A DNA stretch of 64,000 nucleotides from an uncultured Candidatus Woesearchaeota archaeon (GTDB lineage Archaea; Nanobdellota; Nanobdellia; Woesearchaeales; UBA525), in the NCBI GenBank assembly GCA_963724455.1, contig CAVRUV010000006.1, positions 63,158-127,157 of the forward strand, read 5' to 3'. Positions 4,861 to 60,416 of the stretch are shown piece by piece. Both the position numbers and the translations under genes were made by a program. How positions within the stretch are numbered: the stretch's first letter is position 1; each line of letters opens with the position of its first letter. Under the pieces are notes generated by a model that ran no database searches, was not told the DNA's origin, and saw only the letters and a program-made list of their open reading frames with translations.

Positions 4861-4944
4861 ATGAAAAATAAATAAAAAATGAATTAAAATAAAAAATATT
4901 TGGATAAAATTACATGAATAAAAATAACAGATAGGAATTAGAAA

Positions 4945-10900: not shown

Positions 10901-13900
10901 TTAGTCCGCCTGAAATAACCTTGCAATCCCCACAAAATAATACCTATTACAACATTACCGCCATCAATATCACTTATCTTATTAATGATTTTAGTATAGT
11001 TGCTAACTGCACATTATCTTTGAATGACTCAACCACATATGTTAATAGTAGTTTAAACCAAACAAATCAAAATATTTTTACAATAACAAAATCTGCTGCA
11101 GATTGTCTCTATAATATAACTTGTACAGATATCACAAATAATTTTAATACGACAGAAAATGTGTTATTCCATATAGATACCTCTGCGCCTACACAAGTAA
11201 GTCTTCTAACACCAATAAATAATACATTTACAAATAATAATACTCCTACATTAACCTGGTCGCAAACTGTTGAAAATCATTTTGCCAATTATACTGTTTT
11301 AGTAAGTGACAACAGCACATTCCCTTATACTAATTATACCTATACTATCTATGATCTTTCCACAACAAACTATGTTGTAATAACTCCTTGGAGTGATGGC
11401 ATTTGGTATTGGAAAATAATTGTGTGGGATCTTGCAGGAAATAGCGTCGATCCGGGATTCGTATATACTCTCGACAGCACTCCACCAAACGCATTTGATC
11501 TACTTAGCCCTGTAAATGGCACATCGGATGTTTCATCAACTCCGAACCTTGTTTGGTATCCGAGTGATGATTTGTACTTTACAAATTACACTGTGCTTGT
11601 CAGCGATACAAACACGTTCAGCCACAACAACTATACATATGCAACGTACAATGCGACAAATACTTCTTATCAAGTATCTACACCCTGGACAACAAATACT
11701 ATTTGGTACTGGAAAGTCCTTGCTTATGATAATGCAACAAATGTTCAAAATAGCTCTTCAACATTCATGTATATTGCCGATACTGATAATCCTGTTGTAA
11801 AACTTGTTGCCCCTCCAAATTCTACAAGTTATGCTTCAAATTCTTCGTTAATTCCGTTCACATTTAATGTAACAGATTTAAGCGATATATCTTCATGTAC
11901 ACTCTATGTAAATGGAAGTGTTGATAGTTTTGCATCTGACATGTTTTTTATTGATAAGAATGTAAATCAAACATTTATCACCGCACTATCTAGTGATAAT
12001 TACAATTGGAGTGTATCTTGTATTGATGCTGCAGGAAACACTGGATATAGTGCTGTGTGGAATATTAGCATAAATGTGACTCTACCAAAACAGCGATGGT
12101 ATGATACCGCTCTAGAAAATACTCCACAAACAAACGCTTCACAAAATTGGAGCGCAATGATTGTATATGGAAATGCTACAGCTGCTGCAATAGTAAATAC
12201 CGTTCCTAAATATCGTATTTGGGACGGGAATGCTTGGAGTGCAGAAAGTAGTCTTCCTGATTCGGGAAGCCCTCTTCGTTGGGTAAAGATGGCCTCTAGT
12301 CCAATTCTTAGTAGAGCGAGTGAAAAAATAGCCGTTACATTAAGCAATGATGGTTGGCTTGATGCATATGTGTGGAATGGAAGTGCGTGGACTGCATACA
12401 ATAATATTGCAAGTGTTGGAACAACAAATAATGCGTATGGCTCATTTGATATTGAATATGAAAACCAACGCGGTAGAGCTATGCTGTTATACGCAGTAAA
12501 TAGCACAAATTCCGCTGAAGATCTAGCATATCGTATATGGAATGGTTCTGGCTGGCAACCACAAGTGGGTGTTAATGATCCTCTCAACACAACAGATATT
12601 TCTGTTGGATATATAAAACTCGTAAAAAATCCTGATTCTTCTTCAAATGAGCTCGCGAGCGCGTACATTGATGTCACTGATGCCGATGCAAGAGCGATGA
12701 TCTGGAATGGAAGTGCTTGGCAATCATTTATCAATATAACTTCTGCAATTAGCATTGCTACAGAAGAAGATATAGGTATAGCTTACGAACAACAAAGTAA
12801 GAAAATTTTAGCTGTTGCGGGTACAGGTTCGACTGTTGCTTTTGCATTTTATAATAGAACTAGTTGGAATCGAACAGGAACAACAGATATCAATCCGTCT
12901 GCGGCCGTAGTTACTAATTGGCTCACATTAAAACCAAATCCTGTAGGTAACGAAATAATGATTGGTGGTTTAGATGCTGGTTCAGACTTCTCAACTGCGT
13001 TATGGTCAAATGGTGTGTGGAGTGGAGCATTGCGTCATGATGCCACCTCTGATGGTAATACTCGAAGAATGGCAGATTTTGAGTGGGAATCAACCGGTAA
13101 TAATGGAATTGTTATGTGGGGAACCACCTCGGGGCAAGTAGATTATAAAACTTATAATGTAGGAACTGGTTGGGGAGCACAAAACAATGTAGTAACGAGC
13201 GCATCAACACACGCGTGGATCTGGCTTGTAAAAAACCCAAACAATGCCACTGGAGATGTAAAAATACTAGGGGGTATTGAAGATGCTGCCGCTCTTCTTG
13301 AGGGTGTTCGTTGGGTTGGTTCGACTCCTCCTGTTAGACAAGCAAATGCATTTACTACAAATCAAGGAAGCGTCACATATAGGATATTTGATATTGCTTA
13401 TGATAATTATGCACCAAGGACCACATCATACAATAATTATTCTCTAAATATGAGTATTGATTCAACTCCTAATGTTGTTTCTATAATAAGCAGCACAACT
13501 AGTGGCGGACTAACATTATTAAACAATGCTACAAGTTATCCTATGAGAAATTATAGTGCGCTTGGATTACTAATACCTCGTGGCGGCATTGTACGATTTT
13601 CTGCACTATTGTCTAGTATGAATCAAAATGTCAGCTATATTACGTGGTCTATTTTCGGAGTAAATAGTACGAGTGAAGTACTTATCTGTACGAAGGGGAA
13701 TTACACCAGAAATAGTAGTCTTGCTGTCCCGATTGATAAGAATGGTATAAACATCTATACTGGTATTTGCAGTCCTCAGAATAATACAATAATAACGCCA
13801 GAAAAATCTTTACGAGTGTATATGTACATTAATTCTAGTGTAGAAAATACAATTACTAAATTCATAGATAATCTTTCAACATATGTAGAAATTGATGGGT

Positions 13901-15480: not shown

Positions 15481-18400
15481 TTATGTTGGGTTAAAAAATG
15501 TTGGGTTAAAGAAATCTGTATTATTAAGTATTATAATTATGTGTTTGGTGGTAGTTACAATACTATTTTTTGTTAAGAGTGGTTTGGCACTTTCTATATT
15601 GTCTCCACAAGAAACAACATACAATACAAGTGATATTTATGTGTCTTATATTACAACTTATTCAAATAGCACTTTCTGCTCTATAAAAACTGATGGTGGT
15701 TTGTGGATAAACTCTTCTTTGTGCAAATCAATTTTCATAACTGCCCACGAAGGATATAATGTTGTACTTGTTGATGATGGTTATGAAAAAAAGAGTGTTG
15801 GTTATTATTTAGTTGCTCAAATAAATAATTCTAACAACACAATCCAAATAACACAAAATAATGATACTAGCTCATTAAACTTAGATTTGGGGGGAAATAA
15901 TAATAATTCAAATTTAACTTTTGTAGAACAAGATGATATAGATCCTCTAAGTCTTCTTCCCCAAGAAATACAAGATGAAATAATTCAAGGAGAACAAATA
16001 ACAAATGATGAGTTGGTATTACAAAATAAATTTACTTCACGTAGCCCAAGCACCGGCACAATAACTGTGGAGCATTCTCAATATGATTATCCTGCGGGCG
16101 TTTCTTTTAAAGCTCTTGTAAAAATACATAATACAGGACAAGATTCTGCTGTTGTCATTTCTCCTGCCGCGTTATATGCAGATATTCTTCAAATAACTAG
16201 GATTGATATTCAACCACAAACAAAAACGATTACAAAACCCATTTACTCTTCAACAATACAAGATGTTTGTACTATTGATGGTTGTGTAAAAAAAGAAGTT
16301 AAAAAAATTATACGAACTGAACGTGAAAATAAAATAGAAAAAATTGGCATCAAAAAACCGCTTCTAAAGGTTGAAGGTTTTGATTCTCGTTCAGAAAATA
16401 TTCGTAATTCAAAAGATCGTGCGCCTAAAACTGCAAAGTCTATTACTGCAAAAGACACTATTTATCCTGGAGAAGATGCTTATTATGAAATAACTTTTAG
16501 AGCATCTGGCAATGGAAATGATGAATTTTATATTCAAGCACTTAGTAATTCTATGGCAATAGGCCTTGATCCTTTTATTAGTTCTAATTGGACGCACATG
16601 AGAAACATCACTTTGCAAGAAACCTACAATATTACGCGCAATAATCAACTCGTGTATCTGAATTTGACAAACTTTAACGATGATAATTTACGTAATTGTT
16701 CAGAAGAAATTCGTGTAAGTAATAGTTCATTAGATGATGTTGCCGTTCGTATAATTGATGATGGTGGTAATTTAACGACGGGAAAATATTGTACAATTAC
16801 TTTTGGTGCGAGTGTAGTTGCATTACAAAATACAACTTACTATATTTATTGGGAAAATGTGAATGCTACGGCTCCTGCCGCCGCAATAGATGTTAATGAA
16901 TTATACAATCTTACTTGGACGCCTAGCGCAGTATATTTCAACACAACAGATTATGGAACTGCGGCCGATAACACTGATTATATGGCACCAACAATTGTAG
17001 ACTATGATTGTGATGGTAACTTAGATTTAGTGTACGGTCTTGATGATGGGGGGGTGTATTTGCGACGTAATTTAGGAAATAATGTTGTTCCTAATTGGAG
17101 TGCTACAACTACCGTGCTTGCAACAATTGGTGCAAATAGTGGTATTAGTTTTGGATTACTTTTTGGAGGAGATAATCTATTAGATATGGTTGTTGGTGAA
17201 AATACTGGTAATTTGAACTATTATGAAAACACTGGAACTTGTGCAAGCCCAATATGGACTGCTAGAACATTTTCAAATAGCACTGCCGATTTTGGAACGT
17301 GGAGCAGTCCTACTGTATATGATTATAATGGTGATGGTCTTACTGATGTTCTTATAGGAGTTAGTACTGGTTTGTGGAATTCTACAAGAAACTACAACAC
17401 TACAACGTTGCCCGCGTTTATAATTGACGGAATTACTGAACCAACTACTGATGTTGGTACTAATAATTTTCCATCTGAAGCCGATTTGAATTTTGATGGT
17501 GTTATTGATGTTGTTTCGGGAAATTCTGTGGGTAATGTTCGTCTCTTTCAAAACAATGGTACAATAACCTCTCCGTCATGGATTAATTGGGGGCTACTTC
17601 GTTATAATGTGAGTGGGGGTAGTATTGACGTTGGTAATAATGCGCACCCTTCATTATATGATATAAATGGAGATGGTTGGATTGATATGGTGTTGGGAGA
17701 AGCAATCGGCACAATTAGATCATCTTTGGGTGCCGGGGGGTTGGGAGACTATCTTATCAATGCTCCTCTTAATTATACTTTAGGAGAACAGAATATTCGT
17801 CCTGTTGTAAACTCTTTTAGTATAACACCTTCTCCTGCTTACAAAAATGGTACACTAAATTGCACCATCAATATAAGTGATGTTGAAAGCGACACTGTTT
17901 TGGTTAATTTTAGTTGGAGAAGAAATGGAACGGCACAACCTTTGCTTAACAGTTCTGTTGTTTGTCAAAATAACACTTTATGTTTGGCCGGGGTTATAAT
18001 AAATAGTTCACAATTCAACAATACCGACACTTGGACTTGTTCTGCGTTTGCAATTGATGGGGGTTGGAGAGTTTCTTATGATACTAATGTTAGCATACTT
18101 AATTATCCGACAGATTTTACTTTTTTCAACATCCCCGCGCCGATTGTATTGAATGCTGGAACAACAAAACTCATTAATTTTAATCTTAGTATTTTAGATT
18201 ATGATGGAAATACAACAATAAATTTGCGCAATATGAGCATATATCTAAATAATACTGCTCCTGGTGTTATTGATAATAATGTTTCTCATTATACCAATAC
18301 AACCTGTAGATTATTATCTGTAAGTCCATTAATGAAAAATTATACTTGTTCTTTTTTACTTAATTATTATGCAGTGAATGGTACTTGGATTGCAAATGCC

Positions 18401-18859
18401 ACAGTAAATGATACTTGGTCTATAATTACCGACATAATAAATTTCTCCATAGATCCATTATACGCACTAAATCTTTCTGTAAAAAATATTACTTTTGGAA
18501 ACTTGGCGGCGGGAGATATTTCATCTAATATTTCTATTATAACATATAATTTAGGAAATCAAAAAATAAACATTTCTTCCTATAGTTATGGACGAAATGT
18601 AGGAGATAATAATGGTTTTACTTGTGCATTTGGCAATTTAACTCCTGATGTAATCCATTATTCAAATTATGTTGGTCATAATTTTACTCAAAAATCAAAT
18701 CTTTCTGGATCTTCTTCTTTACTAAATCTTTCTGTGACTACTCAAATGAATTCAACTCTAACTTCAAATATTTCTTATTGGCAAGTTGGTGTTCCGGTAC
18801 TTACTCCTCTTTTGGGCTTATGTAACGGAACTATTGTTTTTCAAGCAGAAGCCGGATAA
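15467..18859 (+). CDS. Large (1130 aa) membrane-anchored or secreted surface protein with FG-GAP/VCBS-type beta-propeller repeats.
   Basis: ATG at 15467 overlaps the previous stop by 14 nt. N-terminal hydrophobic segment KKSVLLSIIIMCLVVVTILFF. At least four D-x-[ND]-x-D-G-x-x-D repeats (DYDCDGNLDLVYG, DYNGDGLTDVLIG, DLNFDGVIDVVSG, DINGDGWIDMVLG) at about 17000-17720. Numerous N-x-S/T sequons. Confidence 0.75.
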   Translation: MKSTNYVGLKNVGLKKSVLLSIIIMCLVVVTILFFVKSGLALSILSPQETTYNTSDIYVSYITTYSNSTFCSIKTDGGLWINSSLCKSIFITAHEGYNVVLVDDGYEKKSVGYYLVAQINNSNNTIQITQNNDTSSLNLDLGGNNNNSNLTFVEQDDIDPLSLLPQEIQDEIIQGEQITNDELVLQNKFTSRSPSTGTITVEHSQYDYPAGVSFKALVKIHNTGQDSAVVISPAALYADILQITRIDIQPQTKTITKPIYSSTIQDVCTIDGCVKKEVKKIIRTERENKIEKIGIKKPLLKVEGFDSRSENIRNSKDRAPKTAKSITAKDTIYPGEDAYYEITFRASGNGNDEFYIQALSNSMAIGLDPFISSNWTHMRNITLQETYNITRNNQLVYLNLTNFNDDNLRNCSEEIRVSNSSLDDVAVRIIDDGGNLTTGKYCTITFGASVVALQNTTYYIYWENVNATAPAAAIDVNELYNLTWTPSAVYFNTTDYGTAADNTDYMAPTIVDYDCDGNLDLVYGLDDGGVYLRRNLGNNVVPNWSATTTVLATIGANSGISFGLLFGGDNLLDMVVGENTGNLNYYENTGTCASPIWTARTFSNSTADFGTWSSPTVYDYNGDGLTDVLIGVSTGLWNSTRNYNTTTLPAFIIDGITEPTTDVGTNNFPSEADLNFDGVIDVVSGNSVGNVRLFQNNGTITSPSWINWGLLRYNVSGGSIDVGNNAHPSLYDINGDGWIDMVLGEAIGTIRSSLGAGGLGDYLINAPLNYTLGEQNIRPVVNSFSITPSPAYKNGTLNCTINISDVESDTVLVNFSWRRNGTAQPLLNSSVVCQNNTLCLAGVIINSSQFNNTDTWTCSAFAIDGGWRVSYDTNVSILNYPTDFTFFNIPAPIVLNAGTTKLINFNLSILDYDGNTTINLRNMSIYLNNTAPGVIDNNVSHYTNTTCRLLSVSPLMKNYTCSFLLNYYAVNGTWIANATVNDTWSIITDIINFSIDPLYALNLSVKNITFGNLAAGDISSNISIITYNLGNQKINISSYSYGRNVGDNNGFTCAFGNLTPDVIHYSNYVGHNFTQKSNLSGSSSLLNLSVTTQMNSTLTSNISYWQVGVPVLTPLLGLCNGTIVFQAEAG
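17000..17720 (+). repeat. FG-GAP-like calcium-binding propeller repeats (protein level).
   Basis: Four or more spaced D-x-[DN]-G-D-G-x-x-D-x-[VL]-x-G motifs. Confidence 0.6.
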
Positions 18860-19089
18860 TTTTTACCCTCTCCCCTTGATTTCTTATAGAAATGTTTTTT
18901 TAAATTTTTTGTTGTGTATATTCTTTTTTGGTTGTTATTTGTTGTTTTTTGTAGTTATTTGTTATTCTTTGTTGTTTATCATTCTTTTTTGTTATTTGTT
19001 GTTTTTGTCGTTTTTGTTTGTTATTACACTTGTTATTATTGTTATAAAAAATTTAACTTTATTTTTGTTTTGTTGTGTGTTTTTTGTTT

Positions 19090-19160
19090 TTTTATTATAT
19101 TATTATAATATATTTTTATTATATTATTATATCATATATAATATTATCTATATAGAAAAG
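19090..19160. repeat. TA/ATT alternating low-complexity block; candidate DNA-unwinding element.
   Basis: ttattatattattataatatatttttattatattattatatcatatataatattatctatata, located at the point where T-rich sequence switches to A-rich. Confidence 0.45.
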
Positions 19161-19287
19161 AAATAGAAAGAGAAATAACAATAAAAAAATATCAAAACAA
19201 AAAAAGAATAAAAATAAAAAAATCGTTTTAAAAGGCTTAAGAGGTCACAATTAAAGAAAACAGACAGCACAACAACACAAAATAAGA

Positions 19288-19317
19288 GTTCCATACGAAA
19301 CAAAGGGGAGGGATAGG
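19288..19317 (+). promoter_or_regulatory. ORB-like (Orc1/Cdc6 origin recognition box) element: dyad GTTCCATACGAAAC followed by G-string GGGGAGGGATAGG.
   Basis: The TTCCA-N3-GAAAC core plus a downstream G-run resembles the archaeal ORB architecture of a TCCA...GGAAAC dyad followed by a G-string. Confidence 0.5.
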
Positions 19318-19393
19318 TTTTTAAAACTCTATGTCGGGGTCTATAAACACCAATAGATATTTTTTCAAGCAGTAGAACTTAAATATTACCTAC

Positions 19394-19407
19394 GTTTCAC
19401 ATGGAAC
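19394..19407 (-). promoter_or_regulatory. Second ORB-like dyad, GTTTCACATGGAAC, inverted relative to the first (reverse complement GTTCCATGTGAAAC, 12/14 identical to element 1). It lies between a TATA-like box (cTTAAATAtta, about 19378-19389) and the cdc6 start.
   Basis: Inverted repeat pair 19288-19301 / 19394-19407. Its position suggests Orc1 autoregulation. Confidence 0.45.
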
Positions 19408-19413
19408 AGTTGG

Positions 19414-20910
19414 GTGGATAATATGAGTGATATTAATCAATATTTTCAAGGATATCTGAAGAGAGAATCGCTATTCAAAGATAAATCCGTTCTACAAAGC
19501 AATTACATACCAGGAGAAATAAAACACAGAGATGAACAAATACAACAATTAGCAAAAATCGTCGCTCCGGGACTTCGTTTAGAACGACCAAGCAACATAT
19601 TTATCTACGGAAAAACAGGAACAGGAAAAACTCTAACAGTAAAACATACACTAAACAGCATGCAAGACGTTGCAAAATCACAAAATATTCCACTAAGAGT
19701 TTGTTATGTTAATTGCAAATTAAAAAGAATAGCAGATACAGAATATCGCTTAATAGCAGAACTTGCTAAACATTTCGGCAAACCATTACCTCCAACAGGA
19801 CTACCAACTGATGAAATCTACAACGCTTTTTACAAAGCAATAGATAAGGAAAAACAGATCATAATACTCATTCTTGACGAAATAGACCAACTTGTAAAGA
19901 AAATAGGTGACGAAATACTTTACAATCTTACAAGAATCAATACAGATCTTAAAAATGCACAAGTGAGTATTATAGGAATTAGCAATGATTTGATTTTTAG
20001 CAACACATTAGATCCTCGTGTAAAAAGCAGTCTTTCAGAAGAAGAGCTGGTTTTTCCACCATACAACGCATCACAATTACAGCACATCCTTTCAGAAAGA
20101 GCAACAGCGGCATTCGTTGATAATATTGTGGGAGAAGGAGTTATACAAAAATGCGCAGCATATGCTGCCCGAGAACACGGTGACGCCAGACGAGCACTAG
20201 AGCTTTTACGCGTTGCGGGTGAAGTAGCAGAGCGCGAAGAGAGCAAAACCATCGACATGGTACATATTGATGACGCCGAAGATAGAATCGAACGCGATAA
20301 AATCATAGAAGTAATTCAAACACAAACAAAACAATTTCACGCAACCATTCACGCAATACTTAGTCTTGCTAATAAAAGAAAGAACATTTTTACAGGAGAT
20401 GTGTATGAAGTATACAAAGCGGTGTGCGTCGCTGCAGGTCTTCGACCATTAACACAACGCAGAGTATCTGATATAATAGCAGAAATGGATATGCTCGGAA
20501 TAATTAATGCAAAAGTCATAAGTAAAGGACGATTCGGAAGAATGAGAGAAATAACAATAGGCGTCCACGACAGCCTTTTGCCACAAATACGTTCAATTGT
20601 AAAACACGAACTAGGATTAACAACAGAAGAACCCATTAACGAAGTGATTGCACAAGAAAAAATAACAACCTTTACTCCAGACACAACTACAGATAACACA
20701 TCAGATACAGATACGCAAATAGAAGAAAATGATCTTTTAATTCCTCAAATACAAGAAAAGATAGTAAATCTCAAAACTTCAACAAATCTTAAAACACCAA
20801 CTGTAGAAATAGGACTTGGTGATGAAGTAGAAGACGGAACAGATGTTTTAGAACCGGAAATGATAATCTCAGTAGATATTCAAGAAAAAATAAGAGAGAA
20901 AAACAATTAA
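19414..20910 (+). CDS. cdc6: Orc1/Cdc6 replication initiator (AAA+ ATPase plus winged helix) with an ~85-aa acidic C-terminal extension.
   Basis: Walker A IYGKTGTGKT and Walker B ILILDEIDQL. The C-terminal wH region reads ...RVSDIIAEMDMLGIINAKVISKGRFGRMREI. The track start at 19414 is GTG; the first ATG is 19423 (MSDINQYF) with GGGTGGAT 5 nt upstream. The tail after about residue 410 is D/E/T-rich. Confidence 0.9.
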   Translation: MDNMSDINQYFQGYLKRESLFKDKSVLQSNYIPGEIKHRDEQIQQLAKIVAPGLRLERPSNIFIYGKTGTGKTLTVKHTLNSMQDVAKSQNIPLRVCYVNCKLKRIADTEYRLIAELAKHFGKPLPPTGLPTDEIYNAFYKAIDKEKQIIILILDEIDQLVKKIGDEILYNLTRINTDLKNAQVSIIGISNDLIFSNTLDPRVKSSLSEEELVFPPYNASQLQHILSERATAAFVDNIVGEGVIQKCAAYAAREHGDARRALELLRVAGEVAEREESKTIDMVHIDDAEDRIERDKIIEVIQTQTKQFHATIHAILSLANKRKNIFTGDVYEVYKAVCVAAGLRPLTQRRVSDIIAEMDMLGIINAKVISKGRFGRMREITIGVHDSLLPQIRSIVKHELGLTTEEPINEVIAQEKITTFTPDTTTDNTSDTDTQIEENDLLIPQIQEKIVNLKTSTNLKTPTVEIGLGDEVEDGTDVLEPEMIISVDIQEKIREKNN

Positions 20911-21012: not shown

Positions 21013-22650
21013 ATGATAGCAGACGAACAAGAAACAAACGATTTAATAGACTCCTGTATACGCGCAGGAATAACCGTTCCTACAGACCTATTAGATGATG
21101 CACCAGAATTACGAAAACTTCTTCTCAACACAAAATCACAAATAACACCAACCAGTTCCGTGCAACAACCAATAACATCTCAGGTTGATACAACAATAAA
21201 ACCAGGAACAATACAAATAATAAAAAATTATACAAAACCACCTAAAAAATACAAATATGATGATTTTGTAAAATATTTTAACAAACGATATTTAGCAATA
21301 TCATCCATTCTTAAACAACGAAAAGAGTTATCAAATGTTACCAGCATAGTTCGCATCATCGGAAAGCGAGATCGTGAACAATCAACAATAATAGGCATTG
21401 TAACTGAAAAAAAAGAGATAAAAAGCAAAGCAGCAAACAAAACAGTCATTTTGACTGTAGAAGATCCCACTGGAAAAATTGAAGTGTGGGTAAATCCTGA
21501 AGGAAAAGGCACACACCCCAAAAATCACGAGCTCGAAGAAGCACTGTCTGAAGTGGTATTAGATGAAGTAATAGGAATTACAGGCCAAGCGGCAGGAGAT
21601 AGAATGTTTGCTTCAGCAATATTTTTCCCCGATATTCCAGTTTCTCATGAATTGAAAAAAGGAAGAGAAGAACAATACGTCGTATTTGTCGGCGACGTAC
21701 ACATTGGAGCAAAACTATTTTTAAAAGACGAATTTGAAAAAATGATACTGTGGTTATCAGGACAGATCGGCACAGATGAGCAAAAAGAAATAGCAAAAAA
21801 AGTAAAATATGCAGTTTTTTCAGGAGACCTTGTAGAGGGTGTTGGAATTTATCCAGATCAAGAATTTGATCTTACAATTCCTGACATAAAAAACCAATAT
21901 ACACAATTTGCAAGATATGTAAAAATGATTCCTTCTCATATACAAGTGGTTCTTATAGCAGGAAACCACGACGCAGGAAGATTGCAAGAACCACAAACAG
22001 CAATCTACAAAGATTTTGCTGAAGAACTCTACACAATGCCCAATGTGCATAACTTAAGCAACCCCTGTATGTTTACAATAGGGCAAACCGCAACACACCC
22101 AGGTTTCGATATATTATTGTATCACGGATATAGTCTTATTTATTATGCAAATAACGTTCAACCTATCCGTGACGCGGGCGGATTAAAAGCAACAGATAAG
22201 ATAATGAAACTTTTACTTAAAAAAAGACATCTCGCACCTACACACGGATGCAACACATATGTTCCAGATCCCGATGAAGATCCTCTTGTAATTGATAGAG
22301 TACCTGATTTTTTTGTAACGGGACACGTTCATTATGTAAATTTTGCAAATTACAGAGGAGTAACTTTATTAAATATAAGTTGCTGGTCCGAAGTTAGCGA
22401 ATATCAAGAAAAGAACGGATTAGTTGCATTGCCTGCAAGATTGCCAATAGTAAATCTGCGAACAAGAGATGTGACAATTATGAACTTTTATCACGGTAGT
22501 GAAGAAAAACGTAAAGCAATTCTCGACGCGGCAAAAGATAAAGCCGAACAAACAGCCGCTGAAGAAAAAACTAACAAAGAAAACAACAAAAAAGTCAACG
22601 AAGAAGACAATAAAGAAGAAAACTTGGCAAAAACAAAGGTGACTGTATGA
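21013..22650 (+). CDS. DNA polymerase II (PolD) small subunit DP1: OB-fold plus calcineurin-like phosphoesterase.
   Basis: PDE motifs VFVGDVHIG, GNHD and GHVHY. The K/E-rich C-terminal tail and overall length are typical of archaeal DP1. AGGGAG lies upstream of the ATG. Confidence 0.85.
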   Translation: MIADEQETNDLIDSCIRAGITVPTDLLDDAPELRKLLLNTKSQITPTSSVQQPITSQVDTTIKPGTIQIIKNYTKPPKKYKYDDFVKYFNKRYLAISSILKQRKELSNVTSIVRIIGKRDREQSTIIGIVTEKKEIKSKAANKTVILTVEDPTGKIEVWVNPEGKGTHPKNHELEEALSEVVLDEVIGITGQAAGDRMFASAIFFPDIPVSHELKKGREEQYVVFVGDVHIGAKLFLKDEFEKMILWLSGQIGTDEQKEIAKKVKYAVFSGDLVEGVGIYPDQEFDLTIPDIKNQYTQFARYVKMIPSHIQVVLIAGNHDAGRLQEPQTAIYKDFAEELYTMPNVHNLSNPCMFTIGQTATHPGFDILLYHGYSLIYYANNVQPIRDAGGLKATDKIMKLLLKKRHLAPTHGCNTYVPDPDEDPLVIDRVPDFFVTGHVHYVNFANYRGVTLLNISCWSEVSEYQEKNGLVALPARLPIVNLRTRDVTIMNFYHGSEEKRKAILDAAKDKAEQTAAEEKTNKENNKKVNEEDNKEENLAKTKVTV

Positions 22651-23096
22651 TTGATTATAAGCACACAATGAGTATTACCATACAAGAAGGTCAAGATGTT
22701 GCACAATGTTTTGCCGCAGGAAATCCATTAAGTTTTGTTGTAGAATTTGCAAAACAAGGATTAGTCCTAAATAAAAATAAATCCATCGTACAAGGAACCG
22801 GGAGTCTTTCTAGCGGGAACAATAGATTTTCTTTAACAATAGATGATTATTTTTTAAAAGAAAAAACTGTCAAAAAAAAGATGCAGATTAACAGATACAT
22901 TTTACAAGGAGAAAAAGATGGATTATGTTATGTTTGTATAGCGCAATCAACTCCAACAGGTGCTAGCATAACAATCGATGCCAACAATCAGGCAGCTCTC
23001 GACAAAACACTATTGGCGTTACAAGGAGCATACAATTTTCCTAAAAAATACAACGTAATCATCGAAAAAACAAGTTTTGAAAAAAAGAACACATAA
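22647..23096 (+). CDS. Hypothetical protein (149 aa), translationally coupled to DP1 (ATGA overlap).
   Basis: Clean ORF whose start overlaps the DP1 stop by 4 nt. No recognisable motif. Confidence 0.5.
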   Translation: MIDYKHTMSITIQEGQDVAQCFAAGNPLSFVVEFAKQGLVLNKNKSIVQGTGSLSSGNNRFSLTIDDYFLKEKTVKKKMQINRYILQGEKDGLCYVCIAQSTPTGASITIDANNQAALDKTLLALQGAYNFPKKYNVIIEKTSFEKKNT

Positions 23097-23156
23097 TACA
23101 TTAATAAAAAATAAAAAATCAAAAAAAGAGCAGCAAAAAAGAGTGTGTTGAGAACA

Positions 23157-23633
23157 ATGAGTGATAAAATGGAAACTGAAAAAATAAAGTTTATGACACA
23201 ATTGAACATTCATAATACTTCCCGAGATCAAGAAACATATTTTGGCGCAAGAAGCGTTGAGTGGGAAGCAATAAAATTTTCATTACAACAACAAGGAATA
23301 AATTTTAATGTACAAGATTCACGAAAAAATCTTGTTTATACTTCCAAAGAAATATTGTATCAAGTAACTGTTCCGATGGCGACAACATTTCCTCTTGAAA
23401 ATAATCCTAAAGTATTAGATTACACCTTTGTTGCTAGTAATTTCACCATCAACATCACATCAAAAAATTATTTATTAGATGAAGGTGGACATCAACAAGT
23501 TGTAGAATGCAGAATAGCTTCCCACGATAAAGAGACGTTAGAGGGTTTAGTATTAGGCCTTGTTTACGTTTACAAAAGAGAAGAGCACCACACTTTAGAA
23601 AGAAAAGATTATCCTATAATAAAAAGAGATTAA
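23157..23633 (+). CDS. Hypothetical protein (about 158 aa) between the DP1 and DP2 genes.
   Basis: The track start at 23145 is GTG; the first ATG is 23157 (MSDKMETEK). Co-directional with and flanked by the PolD subunit genes. No recognisable motif. Confidence 0.45.
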   Translation: MSDKMETEKIKFMTQLNIHNTSRDQETYFGARSVEWEAIKFSLQQQGINFNVQDSRKNLVYTSKEILYQVTVPMATTFPLENNPKVLDYTFVASNFTINITSKNYLLDEGGHQQVVECRIASHDKETLEGLVLGLVYVYKREEHHTLERKDYPIIKRD

Positions 23634-23691
23634 AAAATACTAAAAAATGTTAAAAAAACTAAAACTAAAAAACTAAAAAAAAGATGCGCAC

Positions 23692-26600
23692 ATGACTGAA
23701 ATAAACGCAAGTCCACAAATGCAGGAATATTTCGCACAATTCAAAAAAGATTGTTACGATGCGTATAATATTGCTAATAAAGCAAGAGCGTTAGGATACG
23801 ATCCGGAGCAAGAAGTTAGTGTGACATTAGCAGAAACTCTTGCACAAAGAGTTATTGGTCTTATTGCAGTTATTGCCCCCCAGATTAAGAATGCTGGTGT
23901 AGAAAAAAGAATAGAAGATCTTGAAGCACAATATGGTATTCTCGATTGGCGAGTGGCGTTGCAAATCGCACTTGAAGTGGCGCAACAGAAGTTTTGTACA
24001 TTTAAAGATGAGCTTGAAGCGATTGTTATTGGTGTAAGAGTTGGATTTGCCTATAACACTTTAGGTGTTGTTAGCGCACCTCTTGAAGGACTTACTACAA
24101 TAGAACTTAAGAAAAGGCTTGATTATGGAACTGAAGGCCGAGATGGAAAAAAAGGATATTACTTTTGCATAGATTTTGCCGGACCAATTAGAAATGCCGG
24201 CGGAACTGCTGCAGCAATAAGTGTAATTATCGCAGACTATGTTCGCGTAAATATGGGATATGGAACATACGATCCAACAGAAAAAGAGATTAAACGTTGT
24301 CCTGCAGAGTTGGAAGATTATCACGAGTGGGTCACAAACCTACAGTATTTTCCTAGCAAAGAAGAGAGTTTATTTCTTCTTGAACATCTTCCAGTGGAAA
24401 TTGGCGGAGACGGTTCTGAGAAATACCAAATAAGCAACGTAACACTAAAAGATCTTCCTCGTGTCTCTACAAATATTATACGTAACGGTTATTGTCTTAT
24501 TCATTCAAGTTGTATTCCTCTAAAAGCAGCAAAGCTTTGGAAAAATCTCGATAAGTGGGCAAAAGATTTCGGCATGGAGCACTGGAATTTCCTAAAAGAG
24601 TTCCTCGATATTCAAAAGAAAATGAAGGCCGCGGGTAAAAAATCCGAAGGATCAAATAAAATATCTCCCGATTATACTTACATTAAAGATTTGGTTGCTG
24701 GGCGCCCAGTTCTTGGTTATCCTCTTCGATCTGGCGGGTTTAGACTTCGTTATGGACGAAGTAGGGCATCAGGATATTCCGGCCAAGCAATTCATCCTTG
24801 TACAATGCACGTATTGAATAATTATATTGCAAGCGCAACACAGCTTAAAGTAGAGCGTCCGGGAAAAGCCGCAGCATTTACTCCGTGCGATACCATAGAA
24901 GGACCAATTGTGCGCTTGCGTGATGGAGAAGTGATGCAATTGCTCGATGAAGAAGAAGCAAAACGTGTTGCGCCCAAAGTAGAAGAAATAATCTATATCG
25001 GCGATGTACTGATAAATTATGGAGATTTTTATAACAGAAATCACGCATTAGTTCCTGCAGGATATTGTCCTGAATGGTGGATACAAGAAGTTGAAAAATC
25101 AGTTGTGGATTCTGGCAAGGAGTGGAATGCACAGTCGTTAAGCGAAATAACAGGATTGTCTTATGCGCGAGCAGAAGAATTTATTTTAAATTTCTTTAAA
25201 GCAATACCAACAATCGAAGAAGCAATACAAATTGCGCAAACAACAAACACCCCATTACATAGCGCATGGACTCCTTACTGGTCGCAAATAACTATAGAAG
25301 ATATGATAGATTTAATGAATTCTATAACTCTTATCGACGGAATTCTTATTATATCATTAAAGCCTAAGACACAAAAAACACTAGGAATACTTGGAATTCC
25401 TAATAAGCCAATCGATGGTGTTTTAGTGGTTAATGATCAATGGACAAAATCGATAATTGCAACACTTGGGTTAAAAATACTCGATTCTAAAGAGACAATA
25501 GCAATTCTTGAACGATTCCCTAAAGACATGCCGTTATACGAAATAGTAAGTTCTCTTGGAGGAATAACGTTGCGAGATAAGGCCGGAACGTTTATTGGTG
25601 CGCGTATGGGTCGTCCAGAAAAAGCAAAGATGAGAAAGCTTACTGGTAGTCCTCACGGCTTATTTCCAATAGGTGAAGAAGGTGGTAGAATGCGTAGCAT
25701 ACAAGAAGCGCTTGTGGGGGGAAAAGTTACTGCAGATTATCCTCTACGTTATTGTGAGACTTGCAAGACAAATACAGTTTTTGGTAGATGTGAGACTTGC
25801 GACGGTAGAACTGCGCAACACACAGTTACAGTTACAAGAAAACGAGATGGTGTAGAAACACAAGAAGAAATGACTTATTCTAAACAAGAAGCGCAAATTC
25901 GTAAATTGTTTGAAGGGGCGCTTAAGAAATTAAATTTCAAAATATATCCTGACATTATTAAAGGTGTTAGAGGTACAAGTAATCGCAGTCACATTCCCGA
26001 GCACATAACTAAAGCAATTTTACGCGCAAAACACGGCATTGCTGTAAATAAAGATGGAACGGTGCGTTATGATTGCAGCGAAGTAACTCTTACACACTTC
26101 AGACCGTGCGAAGTCGGTGCTAGCGTAGAAAAACTAAAAGCGTTAGGTTATACAAAAGATTGTTATGGAAAAGATTTTGTAGATGAAGATCAAATCTTGG
26201 AACTACGCGCGCAAGATATAGTAATTCCTTGCTGTCCAGAAAGCCCAGAAGATCCGGCAGATGTTGTTTTGCTTCGCGTTACAGCATTTATCGACGAATT
26301 GCTAGTAAAATTATACGGATTAAAGCCTTTCTATAAATGCAAAACACGCGAGGATCTTATCGGGCAATACGTTGTTGGTTTAGCACCACACACTTCAGCA
26401 GGAATAGTGGGTAGGATTGTAGGATTTAGTAAGACACAAGGATTCCTGGCGCACCCATTATATCACGCAGCAATGCGTCGTGACTGTGATGGTGATGAGA
26501 GTTGCATGAGTTTGCTCATGGATGTATTCTTGAATTTTTCAGCAAAGTTCTTGCCTGAATCTCGCGGCAGTACAATGGATGCACCACTTGTTTTGACTTA

Positions 26601-27231
26601 TCTATTGAATCCTGCAGAAGTAGACGATATGGCCTTTCACGTCGATACTGCTTGGAAATATCCACGCGCATTATACGAGCTTGCTTTAGAATACAAAAAA
26701 CCATACGATATCAAAATACCATTGCTTGGAGACGTCTTAGGAATGCCTGCGCAATTTGAAGGAATGGGATTTACACACGACACATCTAGCATCAATTCAG
26801 GAGTTTTATGTTCTGCATACAAGACATTGCCTTCAATGGAAGAAAAATTAGAAGGGCAAATGGCCATTGCAGTAAAATTGCGAGCGTGTGATGCAACTGA
26901 TGTTGCACGTCTTGTAATTGAAAAGCATTTCTTGCGCGACACAAAAGGAAATTTGCGTAAGTTTACACAGCAAGAGTATCGTTGCGTTCATTGCAATGAG
27001 AAATACCGCCGTCCTCCATTGCAAGGCAAATGCTTTGCTTGTTCAGGAAAAGTGATTTTTACCATCAGTGAAGGTAGCGTCATAAAATATTTGCAATTAT
27101 CTATTGATCTTGCAGCAAAATATAATGTTCTAGGATATTTGAAGGAAGATTTGGAGATATTGCAGCGTAAAGTTGATGATTTGTTTGGAAAAGACAAGGA
27201 AAAACAAACAGGCTTAGCTAATTGGGCTTAA
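23692..27231 (+). CDS. DNA polymerase II (PolD) large catalytic subunit DP2; no intein is apparent.
   Basis: 1179 aa. The N-terminus MTEINASPQMQEYFAQFKKDCYDAYNIANKARALGYDPE is typical of DP2. Zn-finger clusters CETCKTNTVFGRCETCDG and CVHCNEKYRRPPLQGKCFACSG. Contiguous homologous length leaves no room for an intein insertion. Confidence 0.9.
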   Translation: MTEINASPQMQEYFAQFKKDCYDAYNIANKARALGYDPEQEVSVTLAETLAQRVIGLIAVIAPQIKNAGVEKRIEDLEAQYGILDWRVALQIALEVAQQKFCTFKDELEAIVIGVRVGFAYNTLGVVSAPLEGLTTIELKKRLDYGTEGRDGKKGYYFCIDFAGPIRNAGGTAAAISVIIADYVRVNMGYGTYDPTEKEIKRCPAELEDYHEWVTNLQYFPSKEESLFLLEHLPVEIGGDGSEKYQISNVTLKDLPRVSTNIIRNGYCLIHSSCIPLKAAKLWKNLDKWAKDFGMEHWNFLKEFLDIQKKMKAAGKKSEGSNKISPDYTYIKDLVAGRPVLGYPLRSGGFRLRYGRSRASGYSGQAIHPCTMHVLNNYIASATQLKVERPGKAAAFTPCDTIEGPIVRLRDGEVMQLLDEEEAKRVAPKVEEIIYIGDVLINYGDFYNRNHALVPAGYCPEWWIQEVEKSVVDSGKEWNAQSLSEITGLSYARAEEFILNFFKAIPTIEEAIQIAQTTNTPLHSAWTPYWSQITIEDMIDLMNSITLIDGILIISLKPKTQKTLGILGIPNKPIDGVLVVNDQWTKSIIATLGLKILDSKETIAILERFPKDMPLYEIVSSLGGITLRDKAGTFIGARMGRPEKAKMRKLTGSPHGLFPIGEEGGRMRSIQEALVGGKVTADYPLRYCETCKTNTVFGRCETCDGRTAQHTVTVTRKRDGVETQEEMTYSKQEAQIRKLFEGALKKLNFKIYPDIIKGVRGTSNRSHIPEHITKAILRAKHGIAVNKDGTVRYDCSEVTLTHFRPCEVGASVEKLKALGYTKDCYGKDFVDEDQILELRAQDIVIPCCPESPEDPADVVLLRVTAFIDELLVKLYGLKPFYKCKTREDLIGQYVVGLAPHTSAGIVGRIVGFSKTQGFLAHPLYHAAMRRDCDGDESCMSLLMDVFLNFSAKFLPESRGSTMDAPLVLTYLLNPAEVDDMAFHVDTAWKYPRALYELALEYKKPYDIKIPLLGDVLGMPAQFEGMGFTHDTSSINSGVLCSAYKTLPSMEEKLEGQMAIAVKLRACDATDVARLVIEKHFLRDTKGNLRKFTQQEYRCVHCNEKYRRPPLQGKCFACSGKVIFTISEGSVIKYLQLSIDLAAKYNVLGYLKEDLEILQRKVDDLFGKDKEKQTGLANWA

Positions 27232-28063: not shown

Positions 28064-28474
28064 TTAAATTCTGCTTTTGATGCTGTTTTTAGCGCCACAT
28101 GCCTGGCAAACTACAAAATAAACACTAACTTCTTTACTGAGTTTTGTATCAGGTTTTCCACAAGTCTTGCAAAAAACATACTCATTAGCATATTCTTGGA
28201 TCTTTTCATTGATTTTTGGAGCAGGAAGCTTTGTTCCGAAGATAACGGAATTTTTGATAATTTCTCCTGGTGTAGCCAGTTCTTTTTGAACGTATTTTAG
28301 AAGATGCTCTGGTTTTCGTCTAAGAGCGTCAGCAATCTGGAACCAGTTGTTGATGATTGTCTTGCTACCTTCTACGTGGCCTTTTACATTAGGAACAGTA
28401 AATCTACTAGTCTCTTCTGATTCATCAGGCAAAATCTCTTTTGCGCGCTCCAACATATCCTCGTAGGACTTCAT
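28064..28474 (-). CDS. Translation initiation factor aIF2 beta subunit.
   Basis: 136 aa. Conserved core ...KPEHLLKYVQKELATPGEI... and C-terminal C4 zinc ribbon CKTCGKPDT...CQACG. Confidence 0.85.
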   Translation of the reverse strand: MKSYEDMLERAKEILPDESEETSRFTVPNVKGHVEGSKTIINNWFQIADALRRKPEHLLKYVQKELATPGEIIKNSVIFGTKLPAPKINEKIQEYANEYVFCKTCGKPDTKLSKEVSVYFVVCQACGAKNSIKSRI

Positions 28475-31038: not shown

Positions 31039-31176
31039 AAATAGAGAATCTTCTTAGTATTCTTAACGCTTACGCTGTAGAAAGCAGAAAATGCAACCCA
31101 AATGCCGCTTATGTGCCAGTATTTGCGTTTGTTTTTAAATAAATTGAAAAAGCCTTTTTTAGAGGCTGTAACCCTT

Positions 31177-31201
31177 GATTTCAATGGAAATGGTGGGGGG
31201 G
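31177..31201 (+). promoter_or_regulatory. ORB-like motif plus G-string (gaTTTCAATGGAAATGGTGGGGGGG) in the RPA-like/MCM divergent intergenic region.
   Basis: TCAATGGAAAT resembles the ORB core TCCAGTGGAAA[CT] and is followed by G7. A TATA-like tttcTTTTAAAcaag lies about 25 nt upstream of the MCM ATG. Confidence 0.3.
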
Positions 31202-31254
31202 TGCACAGGCCAGAGGCGCGAATTTCTTTTAAACAAGAGCACTACTCGTATCGT

Positions 31255-36972: not shown

Positions 36973-37009
36973 TAGCTAACCCCCAAAGGCGCGGTGGTTG
37001 CGCCGTCTC

Positions 37010-37017
37010 TTTATATA
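37010..37017 (-). promoter_or_regulatory. TATA box (TTTATATA) of the tbp promoter. A GC dyad GGCGC-GGTGGTT-GCGCC (36988-37004) lies between it and the start, and a GGGGGT SD-like motif sits 7 nt before the ATG.
   Basis: Read on the minus strand: ctgTATATAAAgagacGGCGCaaccaccGCGCCtttGGGGGTtagctaATG. Confidence 0.45.
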
Positions 37018-60403: not shown

Positions 60404-60416
60404 ATTTGAGGATATT

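What the first reader, a model, noticed from the sequence alone, without database searches (positions are those of the whole stretch)
18860..19425. Predicted oriC next to orc1/cdc6: strand-composition switch, TA-repeat DUE and inverted ORB-like dyads with a G-string
This is the only sizeable non-coding stretch in the window. From about 18880 to 19110 the plus strand is almost only T and G. From about 19140 to 19290 it is almost only A with some C/G, a mirror-image switch of the kind seen at origins. The switch point is a pure alternating TA/ATT block (19090-19160), the expected site for a DNA-unwinding element. Next to the cdc6 start there are two 14-bp dyads in inverted orientation about 90 bp apart: GTTCCATACGAAAC (19288-19301) and GTTTCACATGGAAC (19394-19407). 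The first is followed by GGGGAGGGATAGG. Archaeal ORB elements are built the same way, with a TCCA...GGAAAC dyad plus a G-string. The second dyad lies between a TATA-like box and the cdc6 start, which implies Orc1 binds its own promoter. Together with cdc6, PolD-S and PolD-L, this repeats the oriC-cdc6-polD arrangement known from Thermococcales, here in an AT-rich, probably DPANN-type genome.
Basis: partly seen in the sequence, partly recalled or inferred. Interest (0 to 1): 0.7.

Follow-up and report, generated by a model that had tools for sequence, protein, structure and literature searches.

The report
Replication origin upstream of orc1/cdc6
The 563-base gap in front of the orc1/cdc6 gene has all the sequence hallmarks of a standard archaeal chromosome replication origin, and the same layout recurs in dozens of related DPANN (Woesearchaeota-like) genomes, so it is a well-supported but ordinary kind of feature, with one conserved central motif that the papers I searched did not describe.

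Summary
Window 18860-19422 is intergenic, between an FG-GAP surface-protein gene and orc1/cdc6. It contains a T-rich arm, a 58-bp block that is 97% A+T and is the least stable duplex in the 64 kb, an A-rich arm, and the two quoted dyads. These dyads are the only exact TTCCANNNGAAAC copies in the window.

A third ORB with a G-string lies on the minus strand at 18866-18891, so inverted ORBs bracket the whole AT-rich tract. A palindrome, CTATATAG (19148-19155), sits at the T-to-A switch.

In 80 related orc1 loci the ORB core is about 51-fold enriched in the 1 kb upstream of orc1. The layout recurs: ORB(-), AT-rich tract, TTCTATATAGAAA, ORB(+), then a TATA box fused to a mini-ORB(-), then orc1, polD-small and polD-large. 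The Orc1 protein is closest to the solved ORB-binding initiators Sulfolobus Orc1-1 and Aeropyrum ORC1.

The skew test could not be run properly on 64 kb and is inconclusive. No replication data exist.

Verdict: an oriC1-type origin, a new member of a known kind. The central palindrome is the only element I could not match to anything described.

The parts
18866..18891 (-). ORB-L, a full origin recognition box. It reads TTCTATAAGAAAT-CAA-GGGGAGAGGG on the minus strand. The dyad faces the AT-rich tract and the G-string points outward. It starts 7 nt after the stop codon of the upstream gene.
   Evidence: It forms inverted repeat I4 with 19279-19310, matching 25 of 32 positions. It has 1 mismatch to TTCCANNNGAAAYNNNGG. 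A minus-strand ORB with a G-string lies 250-950 nt upstream of orc1 in 33 relatives. The closest relative, L081, carries the same TTCTA variant.
18896..19092 (+). T-rich arm (T 68%, G 14%) with roughly 10-bp periodic GTTGTTATTT-like units. It probably also supplies oligo-T terminators for the upstream gene; that part is inferred.
   Evidence: Composition. Tandem Repeats Finder reports period 10 with 9.9 copies. Autocorrelation of G peaks at 10, 20 and 30 nt.
19093..19150 (.). Candidate DNA unwinding element, a block that is 97% A+T.
   Evidence: It is the least stable duplex in the 64-kb window at every scale tested (z about 5). Composition.
19146..19158 (.). Central palindromic motif ATCTATATAGAAA (core CTATATAG at 19148-19155), placed exactly at the switch from the T-rich to the A-rich arm.
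   Evidence: CTATATAG is 51-fold enriched upstream of orc1 (25 hits in 76 kb against 5 in 784 kb). A match within 1 mismatch of TTCTATATAGAAA is present in 40 of 61 loci, against 0.75 per 61 in shuffled controls. It is invariant in the alignment of the 6 closest relatives. T-A skew is higher on its left than on its right in 35 of 37 loci.
19156..19287 (+). A-rich arm (about 64% A).
   Evidence: The relatives show the same tendency.
19289..19312 (+). ORB-R, a full origin recognition box: TTCCATACGAAAC-AAA-GGGGAGGG. The dyad faces the AT-rich tract and the G-string points outward.
   Evidence: Exact motif match. A plus-strand ORB with a G-string lies 40-300 nt upstream of orc1 in about 55 cases among relatives. 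The clade consensus is TTCCAtAgGAAAT.AAGGgGTg.
19379..19406 (-). orc1 promoter fused to a mini-ORB. The TATA-like TTAAATATTA (19379-19388) is followed directly by the minus-strand mini-ORB TTCCATGTGAAAC-GTAGG (19389-19406). This mini-ORB has no G-string.
   Evidence: Exact motif match. In 38 relatives the near-minus element has the consensus TTCCA.A.GAAAtaaAGG-TTTATAAA, so the TATA box takes the place of the G-string. The conserved block GAACTTA.A.A..ACCT...TTtC...TGGA appears in alignment A2.
19423..20910 (+). orc1/cdc6 initiator gene (495 aa). An Orc1-1-type core is followed by an acidic, Thr-rich C-terminal tail of about 95 aa. A GGGTGG Shine-Dalgarno-like element lies at 19412-19417.
   Evidence: Pfam Cdc6_C, Cdc6_lid and AAA domains. 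Solved-structure hits 2qby_A (2.7e-99) and 2v1u_A (1e-91). Translation.
21013..27231 (+). PolD small subunit (21013-22650), two small ORFs with no family match, and PolD large subunit (23692-27231). All are co-oriented with orc1.
   Evidence: Pfam. Synteny is conserved in 74 of 75 loci for the small subunit and 66 of 67 for the large subunit.

Best explanation
This is the chromosomal replication origin of a Woesearchaeota-like DPANN archaeon. It is of the oriC1 type and is paired in cis with its initiator gene.

Shown by sequence and comparison:
- Two full ORB elements in inverted orientation (18866-18891 minus strand, 19289-19312 plus strand) bracket a roughly 400-bp tract that is 82% A+T. 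The centre of that tract (19093-19150) is the easiest DNA to melt in the window.
- A conserved palindrome marks the centre.
- A third, G-string-less mini-ORB is fused to the TATA box of orc1.
- The gene product is an Orc1-1 orthologue.

Inferred by analogy with Sulfolobus oriC1 and Pyrococcus oriC (PMC12141716, PMC6742236, PMC1904270):
- One Orc1 monomer binds each ORB with fixed polarity. The winged helix sits on the TTCCA...GAAA dyad, which faces inward, and the AAA+ domain sits toward the G-string, which faces outward.
- ATP-bound Orc1 on the two opposed ORBs recruits MCM hexamers onto the tract between them. MCM is encoded 12 kb away at 31102-33300.
- Melting starts in the TA block and replication proceeds in both directions.
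- Because the top strand is T-rich on the left and A-rich on the right, both outgoing helicases would track along a T-rich leading-strand template. This point is speculative.
- Orc1 bound at the mini-ORB between the TATA box and the start codon would occlude TBP, TFB or RNA polymerase. That would give negative autoregulation linked to origin occupancy.
- The central palindrome TTCTATATAGAAA is most likely the site of a dimeric accessory factor, or a symmetric Orc1 site. In position it is analogous to the Sulfolobus ucm motif.
For: - The window holds exactly two copies of TTCCANNNGAAAC, 92 bp apart and inverted, against 0.18 expected. A third ORB with a G-string lies at the far edge of the gap.
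- The duplex-stability minimum of the whole window is at 19093-19152.
- In 80 related loci the ORB core occurs at 2.08 per kb in -1000..0 against 0.041 per kb elsewhere, as a single sharp peak.
- 44 of 55 loci with enough upstream sequence have the inverted ORB pair around an AT-rich tract (mean 367 nt, 79% A+T).
- The central motif is conserved in 40 of 61 loci against 0.75 expected. It lies between the ORBs at the T/A skew switch.
- The TATA/mini-ORB fusion is conserved.
- Orc1 is closest to the structurally characterised ORB binders.
- orc1-polD synteny is conserved.
- The literature defines archaeal origins as exactly this arrangement (PMC4010727, PMC6742236). In another DPANN genome the origin predicted from skew lies next to cdc6 (PMC5905446).
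Against: - There is no functional evidence: no marker frequency, ChIP or autonomous-replication assay.
- Skew within the window shows no extremum at 19 kb.
- A gene-orientation-corrected regression over 400 genes gave only weak side effects (GC3 t = -2.1, AT3 t = 3.8). It is confounded because the same conserved genes always lie on the right.
- In Thermococcus kodakarensis a canonical oriC/cdc6 pair is dispensable (PMC5663688, title and abstract). Sequence hallmarks therefore do not prove use.
- The spacing between the opposed ORBs (about 400 bp) is larger than the 130-bp ORB3-DUE-ORB2 unit of Sulfolobus (PMC12141716).
- ORB-L departs from the core at one position (TTCTA instead of TTCCA).
Confidence: 0.85

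Rival explanations
1. The ORB elements serve only as operator sites through which Orc1 regulates its own operon (orc1-polD). The AT-rich tract would then be an ordinary terminator and promoter spacer, and replication would start elsewhere or by recombination.
For: The mini-ORB overlaps the promoter in the window and in about 38 relatives. Orc1 paralogues can act as transcription regulators (Orc1-2; PMC9738581 abstract). T. kodakarensis replicates without cdc6 or oriC (PMC5663688). There is no skew signal in the window.
Against: A pure operator does not need two further full ORBs with G-strings, opposed to each other, 130-550 nt upstream of the promoter around the least stable DNA in the window. 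It also does not need a conserved central motif at a strand-composition switch. The initiator is the Orc1-1 type, not the Orc1-2 type. It is reported as single-copy across Nanobdellota (preprint 10.64898/2026.05.13.725050).
Confidence: 0.08
2. It is a genuine origin but a secondary or dormant one, and the main origin lies elsewhere on the chromosome.
For: Many archaea have several origins, and some predicted origins are dormant (PMC4595724 abstract). Only 64 kb of the replicon is visible.
Against: Orc1/Cdc6 is reported as a single-copy core gene in Nanobdellota. The architecture is conserved next to that single gene in most relatives. Genomes in this group are small, 0.55-2.7 Mb.
Confidence: 0.05
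3. It is a chance low-complexity intergenic region, or an assembly artefact, that happens to contain ORB-like words.
For: Low-complexity AT-rich DNA generates many weak repeats. Assemblies often break at this spot in relatives.
Against: The exact-motif count is far above the shuffled expectation. Position, orientation and order of all elements are conserved in dozens of independent assemblies.
Confidence: 0.02

Closest known systems
Sulfolobus oriC1 / Aeropyrum pernix oriC1 (Orc1-1-dependent origin with ORB elements)
   Same: The initiator is the closest solved homologue (2qby_A, 2v1u_A). The origin lies directly upstream of the initiator gene. Opposed ORBs flank an AT-rich unwinding element. 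A conserved sequence motif sits midway in that element, as the ucm motif does in Sulfolobus (PMC12141716).
   Different: The distance between the opposed ORBs is about 400 bp, against a 130-bp ORB3-DUE-ORB2 unit. The central motif (TTCTATATAGAAA, palindromic) is unrelated in sequence to ucm (ATTATACAAAC). UBP is reported to be restricted to Sulfolobales and Desulfurococcales. This origin has pronounced T-rich and A-rich arms. It has a single initiator and, presumably, a single origin.
Pyrococcus/Thermococcales oriC (oriC-cdc6-dp1-dp2 cluster)
   Same: The gene order is the same: oriC, orc1/cdc6, PolD small subunit, PolD large subunit (PMC1904270). Two long inverted ORBs are combined with short mini-ORBs. 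The TTCC...GAA core and a G-run are shared: P. furiosus ORB1 read on the other strand is TTCCAGTGGAAATGAAACTCTGGGGGG.
   Different: There is no second ORB cluster inside dp1. The G-run starts 4 nt after GAAA here, against 9 nt in P. furiosus ORB1. The genome is mesophile-like and AT-rich, with a much more extreme AT tract.
Haloarchaeal oriC1 (ORBs with an extended G-string)
   Same: ORBs end in a G-string and lie next to the initiator gene. In Haloarcula the G-string is essential for autonomous replication (PMC4010727).
   Different: The G-string here is short and interrupted (GGGGAGGG; clade consensus GGGGTG). The genome is AT-rich and has one initiator rather than many.
Cdc6-adjacent origin predicted in the DPANN archaeon Candidatus Forterrea
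   Same: It is a DPANN genome whose origin is predicted next to cdc6 (PMC5905446).
   Different: That prediction rested on cumulative GC skew and the Z-curve over a closed genome, and the passages I read described no ORB or unwinding-element anatomy. Here the anatomy is resolved but genome-wide skew is unavailable.

Membership tests
Archaeal oriC1-type replication origin (ORB/Orc1-1 replicator-initiator pair) | Located directly next to an orc1/cdc6 initiator gene | tested here: met
   The origin elements span 18866-19406 and the orc1 ATG is at 19423.
Archaeal oriC1-type replication origin (ORB/Orc1-1 replicator-initiator pair) | The initiator is an Orc1-1-class protein (AAA+ domain plus C-terminal winged helix) | tested here: met
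   Pfam AAA, Cdc6_lid and Cdc6_C. Best solved-structure hits are Sso Orc1-1 (2.7e-99) and Ape ORC1 (1e-91), against Orc1-3 (3e-42) and ORC2 (7e-20).
Archaeal oriC1-type replication origin (ORB/Orc1-1 replicator-initiator pair) | Repeated ORB elements with a TTCC...GAA dyad core, the long forms ending in a G-run | tested here: met
   There are three elements, two of them with a G-string. The core agrees with the conserved 'TTCC' and 'GAA' motifs of PMC1904270.
Archaeal oriC1-type replication origin (ORB/Orc1-1 replicator-initiator pair) | ORBs of opposite polarity flanking an AT-rich DNA unwinding element | tested here: met
   ORB-L (minus strand) and ORB-R (plus strand) flank 397 bp that is 82% A+T. 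The stability minimum of the window lies inside that tract.
Archaeal oriC1-type replication origin (ORB/Orc1-1 replicator-initiator pair) | Conservation of the arrangement in related genomes | tested here: met
   ORB enrichment is 51-fold. The inverted pair is present in 44 of 55 loci. The density profile has a single peak.
Archaeal oriC1-type replication origin (ORB/Orc1-1 replicator-initiator pair) | Strand-composition (GC-skew or Z-curve) polarity switch of the replicon at the site | tested here: inconclusive
   Only 64 kb is available. Cumulative skew follows gene orientation and its minimum is at 11.9 kb, inside a giant gene. The pooled regression is weak and confounded.
Archaeal oriC1-type replication origin (ORB/Orc1-1 replicator-initiator pair) | Orc1 binding to the ORBs, and replication initiation in vivo or autonomous-replication activity | not testable with these tools
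   This needs footprinting or ChIP, marker-frequency analysis, 2D gels or a plasmid assay.
Thermococcales-type oriC region | Second ORB/mini-ORB cluster inside the dp1 gene | tested here: not met
   There is no ORB hit in 21013-22650. Relatives show no enrichment at +1000..+3000.
Sulfolobales ucm/UBP origin module | An 11-bp ucm sequence (ATTATACAAAC) within the unwinding element | tested here: not met
   The central conserved motif here is TTCTATATAGAAA, which is unrelated in sequence. Only the position, midway between opposed ORBs, is analogous.

The most novel reading that the evidence does not exclude
The palindrome TTC(T/A)ATAT(A/T)GAAA marks the exact centre of the unwinding region and the T-to-A strand switch in about two thirds of Woesearchaeota-like origins. 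It may be an essential origin element read by a lineage-specific dimeric factor, or by Orc1 in a second, symmetric binding mode. That would make it a functional analogue of the Sulfolobus ucm/UBP module in DPANN archaea. The authors of the ucm/UBP paper explicitly ask whether other archaeal lineages have such analogues (PMC12141716).
Probability: 0.35. Interest if true: 0.55.

Novelty: new member of a known kind. Interest (0 to 1): 0.35.

Why it matters
DPANN archaea are uncultivated or hard to grow, and their replication control is essentially unstudied. A recent set of 208 closed Nanobdellota genomes was simply rotated to orc1 by convention, and a search of that preprint's main text found no mention of ORBs or skew.

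This work gives a sequence-level origin model that is conserved across the clade: opposed ORBs, phased T and A arms, a central palindrome, and a promoter built into a mini-ORB. The model provides a rational start coordinate for these genomes. It offers a plausible reason why many short-read assemblies break just upstream of orc1. It also provides concrete DNA probes for Orc1 binding, and for fishing out a possible origin-accessory factor.

The model does not change the general picture of archaeal replication initiation.

Tried and rejected
- Source contig. I tried to retrieve it for a genome-scale skew plot. The identical protein P0001 sits on a 142-kb contig, but two look-ups by exact sequence failed.
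- Skew within the window. Cumulative GC, AT, RY and MK skews follow gene orientation and have no extremum at 19 kb.
- Pooled skew regression. I regressed third-codon-position skew on gene orientation and on side of the origin for 400 genes. The side effects are small and confounded by the conserved right-hand genes, so I treat this as inconclusive.
- Snap-back or cruciform reading of the T and A arms. Single-strand DNA folding of 19000-19300 is no better than shuffles (z = -0.12). Rejected.
- Co-evolution of the left and right ORBs within a genome. Identity at variable positions is 0.411 within genomes and 0.410 between genomes (permutation p = 0.45). Rejected.
- The palindrome as a general promoter or TBP-gene element. 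A second perfect copy, TTTTCTATATAGAAAA, lies about 160 nt upstream of the TBP gene. Among 71 related TBP loci with enough upstream sequence, only 2 have a copy within 400 nt, and one of those is a relative with 94% identical TBP. In the orc1 loci the extended motif never occurs outside the origin zone (28 inside, 0 outside). It is therefore not a general promoter element.
- Non-coding RNAs. The window has no Rfam or tRNA hit. The GC-rich segment upstream of the origin in relative L081 has no Rfam match.
- Second ORB cluster in dp1, as in Pyrococcus. Absent.
- Prior description. Literature searches for ORB work in DPANN or Woesearchaeota found none in the library.
Full report
**1. The observation**

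The region 18860-19422 is a 563-nt gap. It lies between the stop codon of a 1130-aa FG-GAP repeat protein gene (15467-18859, plus strand) and the ATG of orc1/cdc6 at 19423.

GTTCCATACGAAAC is at 19288-19301 and is followed by AAA-GGGGAGGGATAGG. GTTTCACATGGAAC is at 19394-19407. They are the only two exact matches to TTCCANNNGAAAC in the 64-kb window and lie on opposite strands, 92 bp apart. Dinucleotide-preserving shuffles give 0.18 matches on average and never reach two.

The composition claims hold within rounding:

| Segment | Composition |
|---|---|
| 18896-19092 | T 68%, G 14%, A 14%, C 4% |
| 19093-19150 | 97% A+T, no G |
| 19151-19287 | A 64% |

A nearest-neighbour stability scan places the least stable duplex of the whole window at 19093-19152 at all four window sizes tried (z about 5).

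Two small corrections are needed. The gap is not the only ORF-free stretch, because gaps of 611 and 627 nt exist at 36973-37583 and 60045-60671. It is, however, the most AT-rich. The two arms are also not a foldable palindrome (DNA fold z = -0.12).

**2.

A third ORB sits at the far left edge of the gap on the minus strand, at 18866-18891. It reads TTCTATAAGAAAT-CAA-GGGGAGAGGG. It forms a 25-of-32 inverted repeat with the right-hand ORB.

The gap is therefore bracketed by two full ORBs of opposite polarity. Their dyads face inward and their G-strings face outward. They enclose 397 bp that is 82% A+T.

The element next to the start codon lacks a G-string. In its place lies the TATA-like box TTAAATATTA (19379-19388).

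An 8-bp palindrome, CTATATAG (19148-19155; extended form ATCTATATAGAAA), sits exactly where the T-rich arm changes to the A-rich arm.

The T-rich arm also has a roughly 10-bp periodicity. This is the spacing expected for phased T-tracts that give intrinsically bent DNA. The bending itself is inferred, not measured.

**3. The genes around it**

Pfam confirms Orc1/Cdc6 (AAA, Cdc6_lid, Cdc6_C), the PolD small subunit and the PolD large subunit downstream on the same strand. MCM lies at 31102-33300.

Among solved structures, the Orc1 protein is closest to the two initiators crystallised on ORB DNA. These are S. solfataricus Orc1-1 (2qby_A, E = 2.7e-99) and A. pernix ORC1 (2v1u_A, E = 1e-91). The other paralogue classes score far lower: Orc1-3 at 3e-42 and ORC2 at 7e-20.

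The nearest database proteins are annotated Woesearchaeota, Nanoarchaeota or Nanoarchaeia. An identical protein exists on a 142-kb public contig that I could not retrieve.

**4. Comparative test**

I fetched 80 genome loci encoding Orc1 relatives at 58-69% identity and five closer ones at 74-80% identity.

- The ORB core TTCCANNNGAAA occurs 129 times in the 62 kb lying within 1 kb upstream of orc1, and 30 times in the remaining 737 kb. That is 2.08 against 0.041 per kb, a 51-fold difference.
- A binned profile shows one sharp peak at -1000..0 and nothing inside orc1 or the polD genes.
- The hits fall into three classes with the same order and orientation as in the window:
  - a far minus-strand ORB with a G-string, at -250 to -950;
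  - a near plus-strand ORB with a G-string, at -40 to -300, with clade consensus TTCCAtAgGAAAT.AAGGgGTg;
  - a promoter-proximal minus-strand mini-ORB at about -20 to -50, whose 3' side runs straight into the TATA box (consensus TTCCA.A.GAAAtaaAGG-TTTATAAA).
- Of 55 loci with at least 900 nt upstream, 44 have the opposed ORB pair around an AT-rich tract (mean 367 nt, 79% A+T).
- orc1 is followed by the PolD small subunit in 74 of 75 loci and by the PolD large subunit in 66 of 67.

**5. The central motif**

- CTATATAG occurs 25 times in the 76 kb upstream of orc1 and 5 times in the other 784 kb.
- A match within one mismatch of TTCTATATAGAAA is found upstream of orc1 in 40 of 61 loci. Block-shuffled controls that preserve local composition give 0.75 per 61.
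- The variants TTCAATATAGAAA, TTCTATATTGAAA and TTCAATATTGAAA keep the TTC...GAA frame.
- The stricter form TTC[TA]ATAT[AT]GAA occurs 28 times in the origin zone and never elsewhere in these loci.
- When loci are anchored on the motif, the 100 nt to its left have a mean T-A skew of +0.27 and the 100 nt to its right -0.21. Left exceeds right in 35 of 37 loci. The motif lies a median 176 nt from the left ORB and 144 nt from the right ORB.
- In an alignment of the six closest relatives only three blocks are invariant: this palindrome, the ORB-R core with its G-run, and the promoter/mini-ORB block.

It is most extreme in the window and its nearest relatives, and it is centred on a conserved sequence element.

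**6. Mechanism**

Steps 1-5 show the anatomy. The mechanism is inferred from experimentally studied origins.

- In Sulfolobus oriC1, each ORB binds one Orc1-1 monomer with fixed polarity. ORB2 and ORB3 are inverted around the unwinding element. Both are individually required, and together they direct MCM to the intervening DNA (PMC12141716).
- The opposed polarity places the winged-helix and lid regions of Orc1 facing each other across the unwinding element (PMC6742236).
- In Pyrococcus, Cdc6/Orc1 binds long ORBs strongly and single mini-ORBs weakly (PMC1904270).

By analogy I propose the following.

- Orc1 binds ORB-L and ORB-R and loads MCM onto the AT tract. Melting begins in the 19093-19150 TA block.
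- Orc1 at the weaker mini-ORB, between the TATA box and the Shine-Dalgarno-like GGGTGG (19412-19417), represses its own transcription when Orc1 is abundant.
- Because of the T and A arms, each outgoing helicase would translocate 3' to 5' on a T-rich strand. Whether that matters for loading or priming is speculation.
- The central palindrome could bind a dimeric accessory protein, as ucm binds UBP midway between the Sulfolobus ORBs. It could instead be a symmetric, one-base-longer relative of the ORB dyad. The window's ORB-L, TTCTATAAGAAAT, differs from it by a single-base deletion.

**7. What is not established**

- No skew extremum can be shown. Cumulative skews across the 64 kb track gene orientation.
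- A regression of third-position skew on gene orientation and side of the origin, over 400 genes, gave only small side terms. It is confounded because the same genes always lie on the right.
- There are no replication data. A canonical oriC/cdc6 pair can be dispensable, as in T. kodakarensis (PMC5663688).
- The Sulfolobus and Aeropyrum ORB sequences themselves were not available in the open texts I read. My statement that the G-run spacing here resembles theirs more than that of Pyrococcus would rest on memory, so I do not use it as evidence. The comparison with P. furiosus ORB1 (TTCCAGTGGAAATGAAACTCTGGGGGG on the other strand) comes.

**8. Novelty**

A cdc6-adjacent origin with ORBs is the textbook archaeal arrangement (PMC4010727). 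A DPANN origin next to cdc6 has already been inferred from skew (PMC5905446).

I found no description of ORBs or origin anatomy for Woesearchaeota or DPANN in the searchable library. The 2026 preprint on complete Nanobdellota genomes uses orc1 only as a rotation convention.

The locus is therefore a new member of a known kind. The clade-wide central palindrome and the TATA/mini-ORB fusion are details I found no prior description of. They are of moderate specialist interest.

Noticed in passing
L004, L009, L010, L013, L015, L018, L024-L026, L031, L035, L036, L038, L040, L044, L045, L048, L055, L066, L068, L072-L074, L079; L083-L085: About 24 of 80 genome contigs, and 3 of 5 metagenome contigs, end within roughly 550 nt upstream of orc1. 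That is far more than random fragmentation would give. The low-complexity AT-rich origin seems to break short-read assemblies across this clade.
   Followed up: partly
window 37127-37142: A second perfect copy of the origin-centre palindrome, TTTTCTATATAGAAAA, lies about 160 nt upstream of the TBP gene (36376-36972, minus strand) in a 611-nt ORF-poor gap, with no ORB nearby. Among 71 related TBP loci with enough upstream sequence, only 2 have a copy within 400 nt upstream, one of them the relative with 94% identical TBP (L086).
   Followed up: yes
L081 6807-7100; L083 1-100: In the closest relatives a GC-rich, structured-looking segment sits between the upstream gene and the left ORB. It ends in a stem-loop such as CCCCGCCCTTTAGGGCGGGG. 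It is absent from the window and has no Rfam match. It may be an undescribed non-coding RNA or an inserted element.
   Followed up: partly
window 20620-20907 (Orc1 residues about 400-495): The window's Orc1 carries an acidic, Thr/Glu/Asp-rich C-terminal tail of about 95 aa after the winged-helix domain. Most relatives are about 400 aa long and lack it. The closest relatives (489-519 aa) are similarly long, although I did not inspect their C-termini.
   Followed up: no
window 37-18859: Three consecutive very large genes (1607, 3511 and 1130 aa) all point toward the origin. The last one has FG-GAP repeats. Close relatives have He_PIG/Big-domain giants in the same position. These are probably cell-surface proteins of the kind reported in DPANN genomes.
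   Followed up: no
window 31102-33300, 36376-36972, 28064-28474: MCM helicase, TBP and an eIF2-beta/eIF5-domain protein lie within 18 kb of the origin, together with orc1 and both PolD subunits. Information-processing genes are thus clustered near the origin.
   Followed up: partly
window 31172-31196 and 24389-24406: Isolated ORB-like words with one mismatch occur inside the start of the MCM gene (TTTCAATGGAAATGGTGG) and inside the PolD large-subunit gene (TTCCAGTGGAAATTGGCG). The count of such near-matches is within about twice the chance expectation, and relatives show no enrichment at these positions.
   Followed up: partly
L084 1-19: This public metagenome contig begins with CACGACGCTCTTCCGATCT. 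From memory this is the 3' part of the Illumina TruSeq adapter, which would make it untrimmed adapter at a contig end.
   Followed up: no
window 1-64000: No tRNA gene and no Rfam family at gathering threshold were found anywhere in the 64 kb.
   Followed up: no
L011 about -2750 to -2000 relative to orc1: In this relative the ORB cluster lies about 2-2.7 kb upstream of orc1 instead of directly next to it. This suggests an insertion between the origin and the initiator gene.
   Followed up: no
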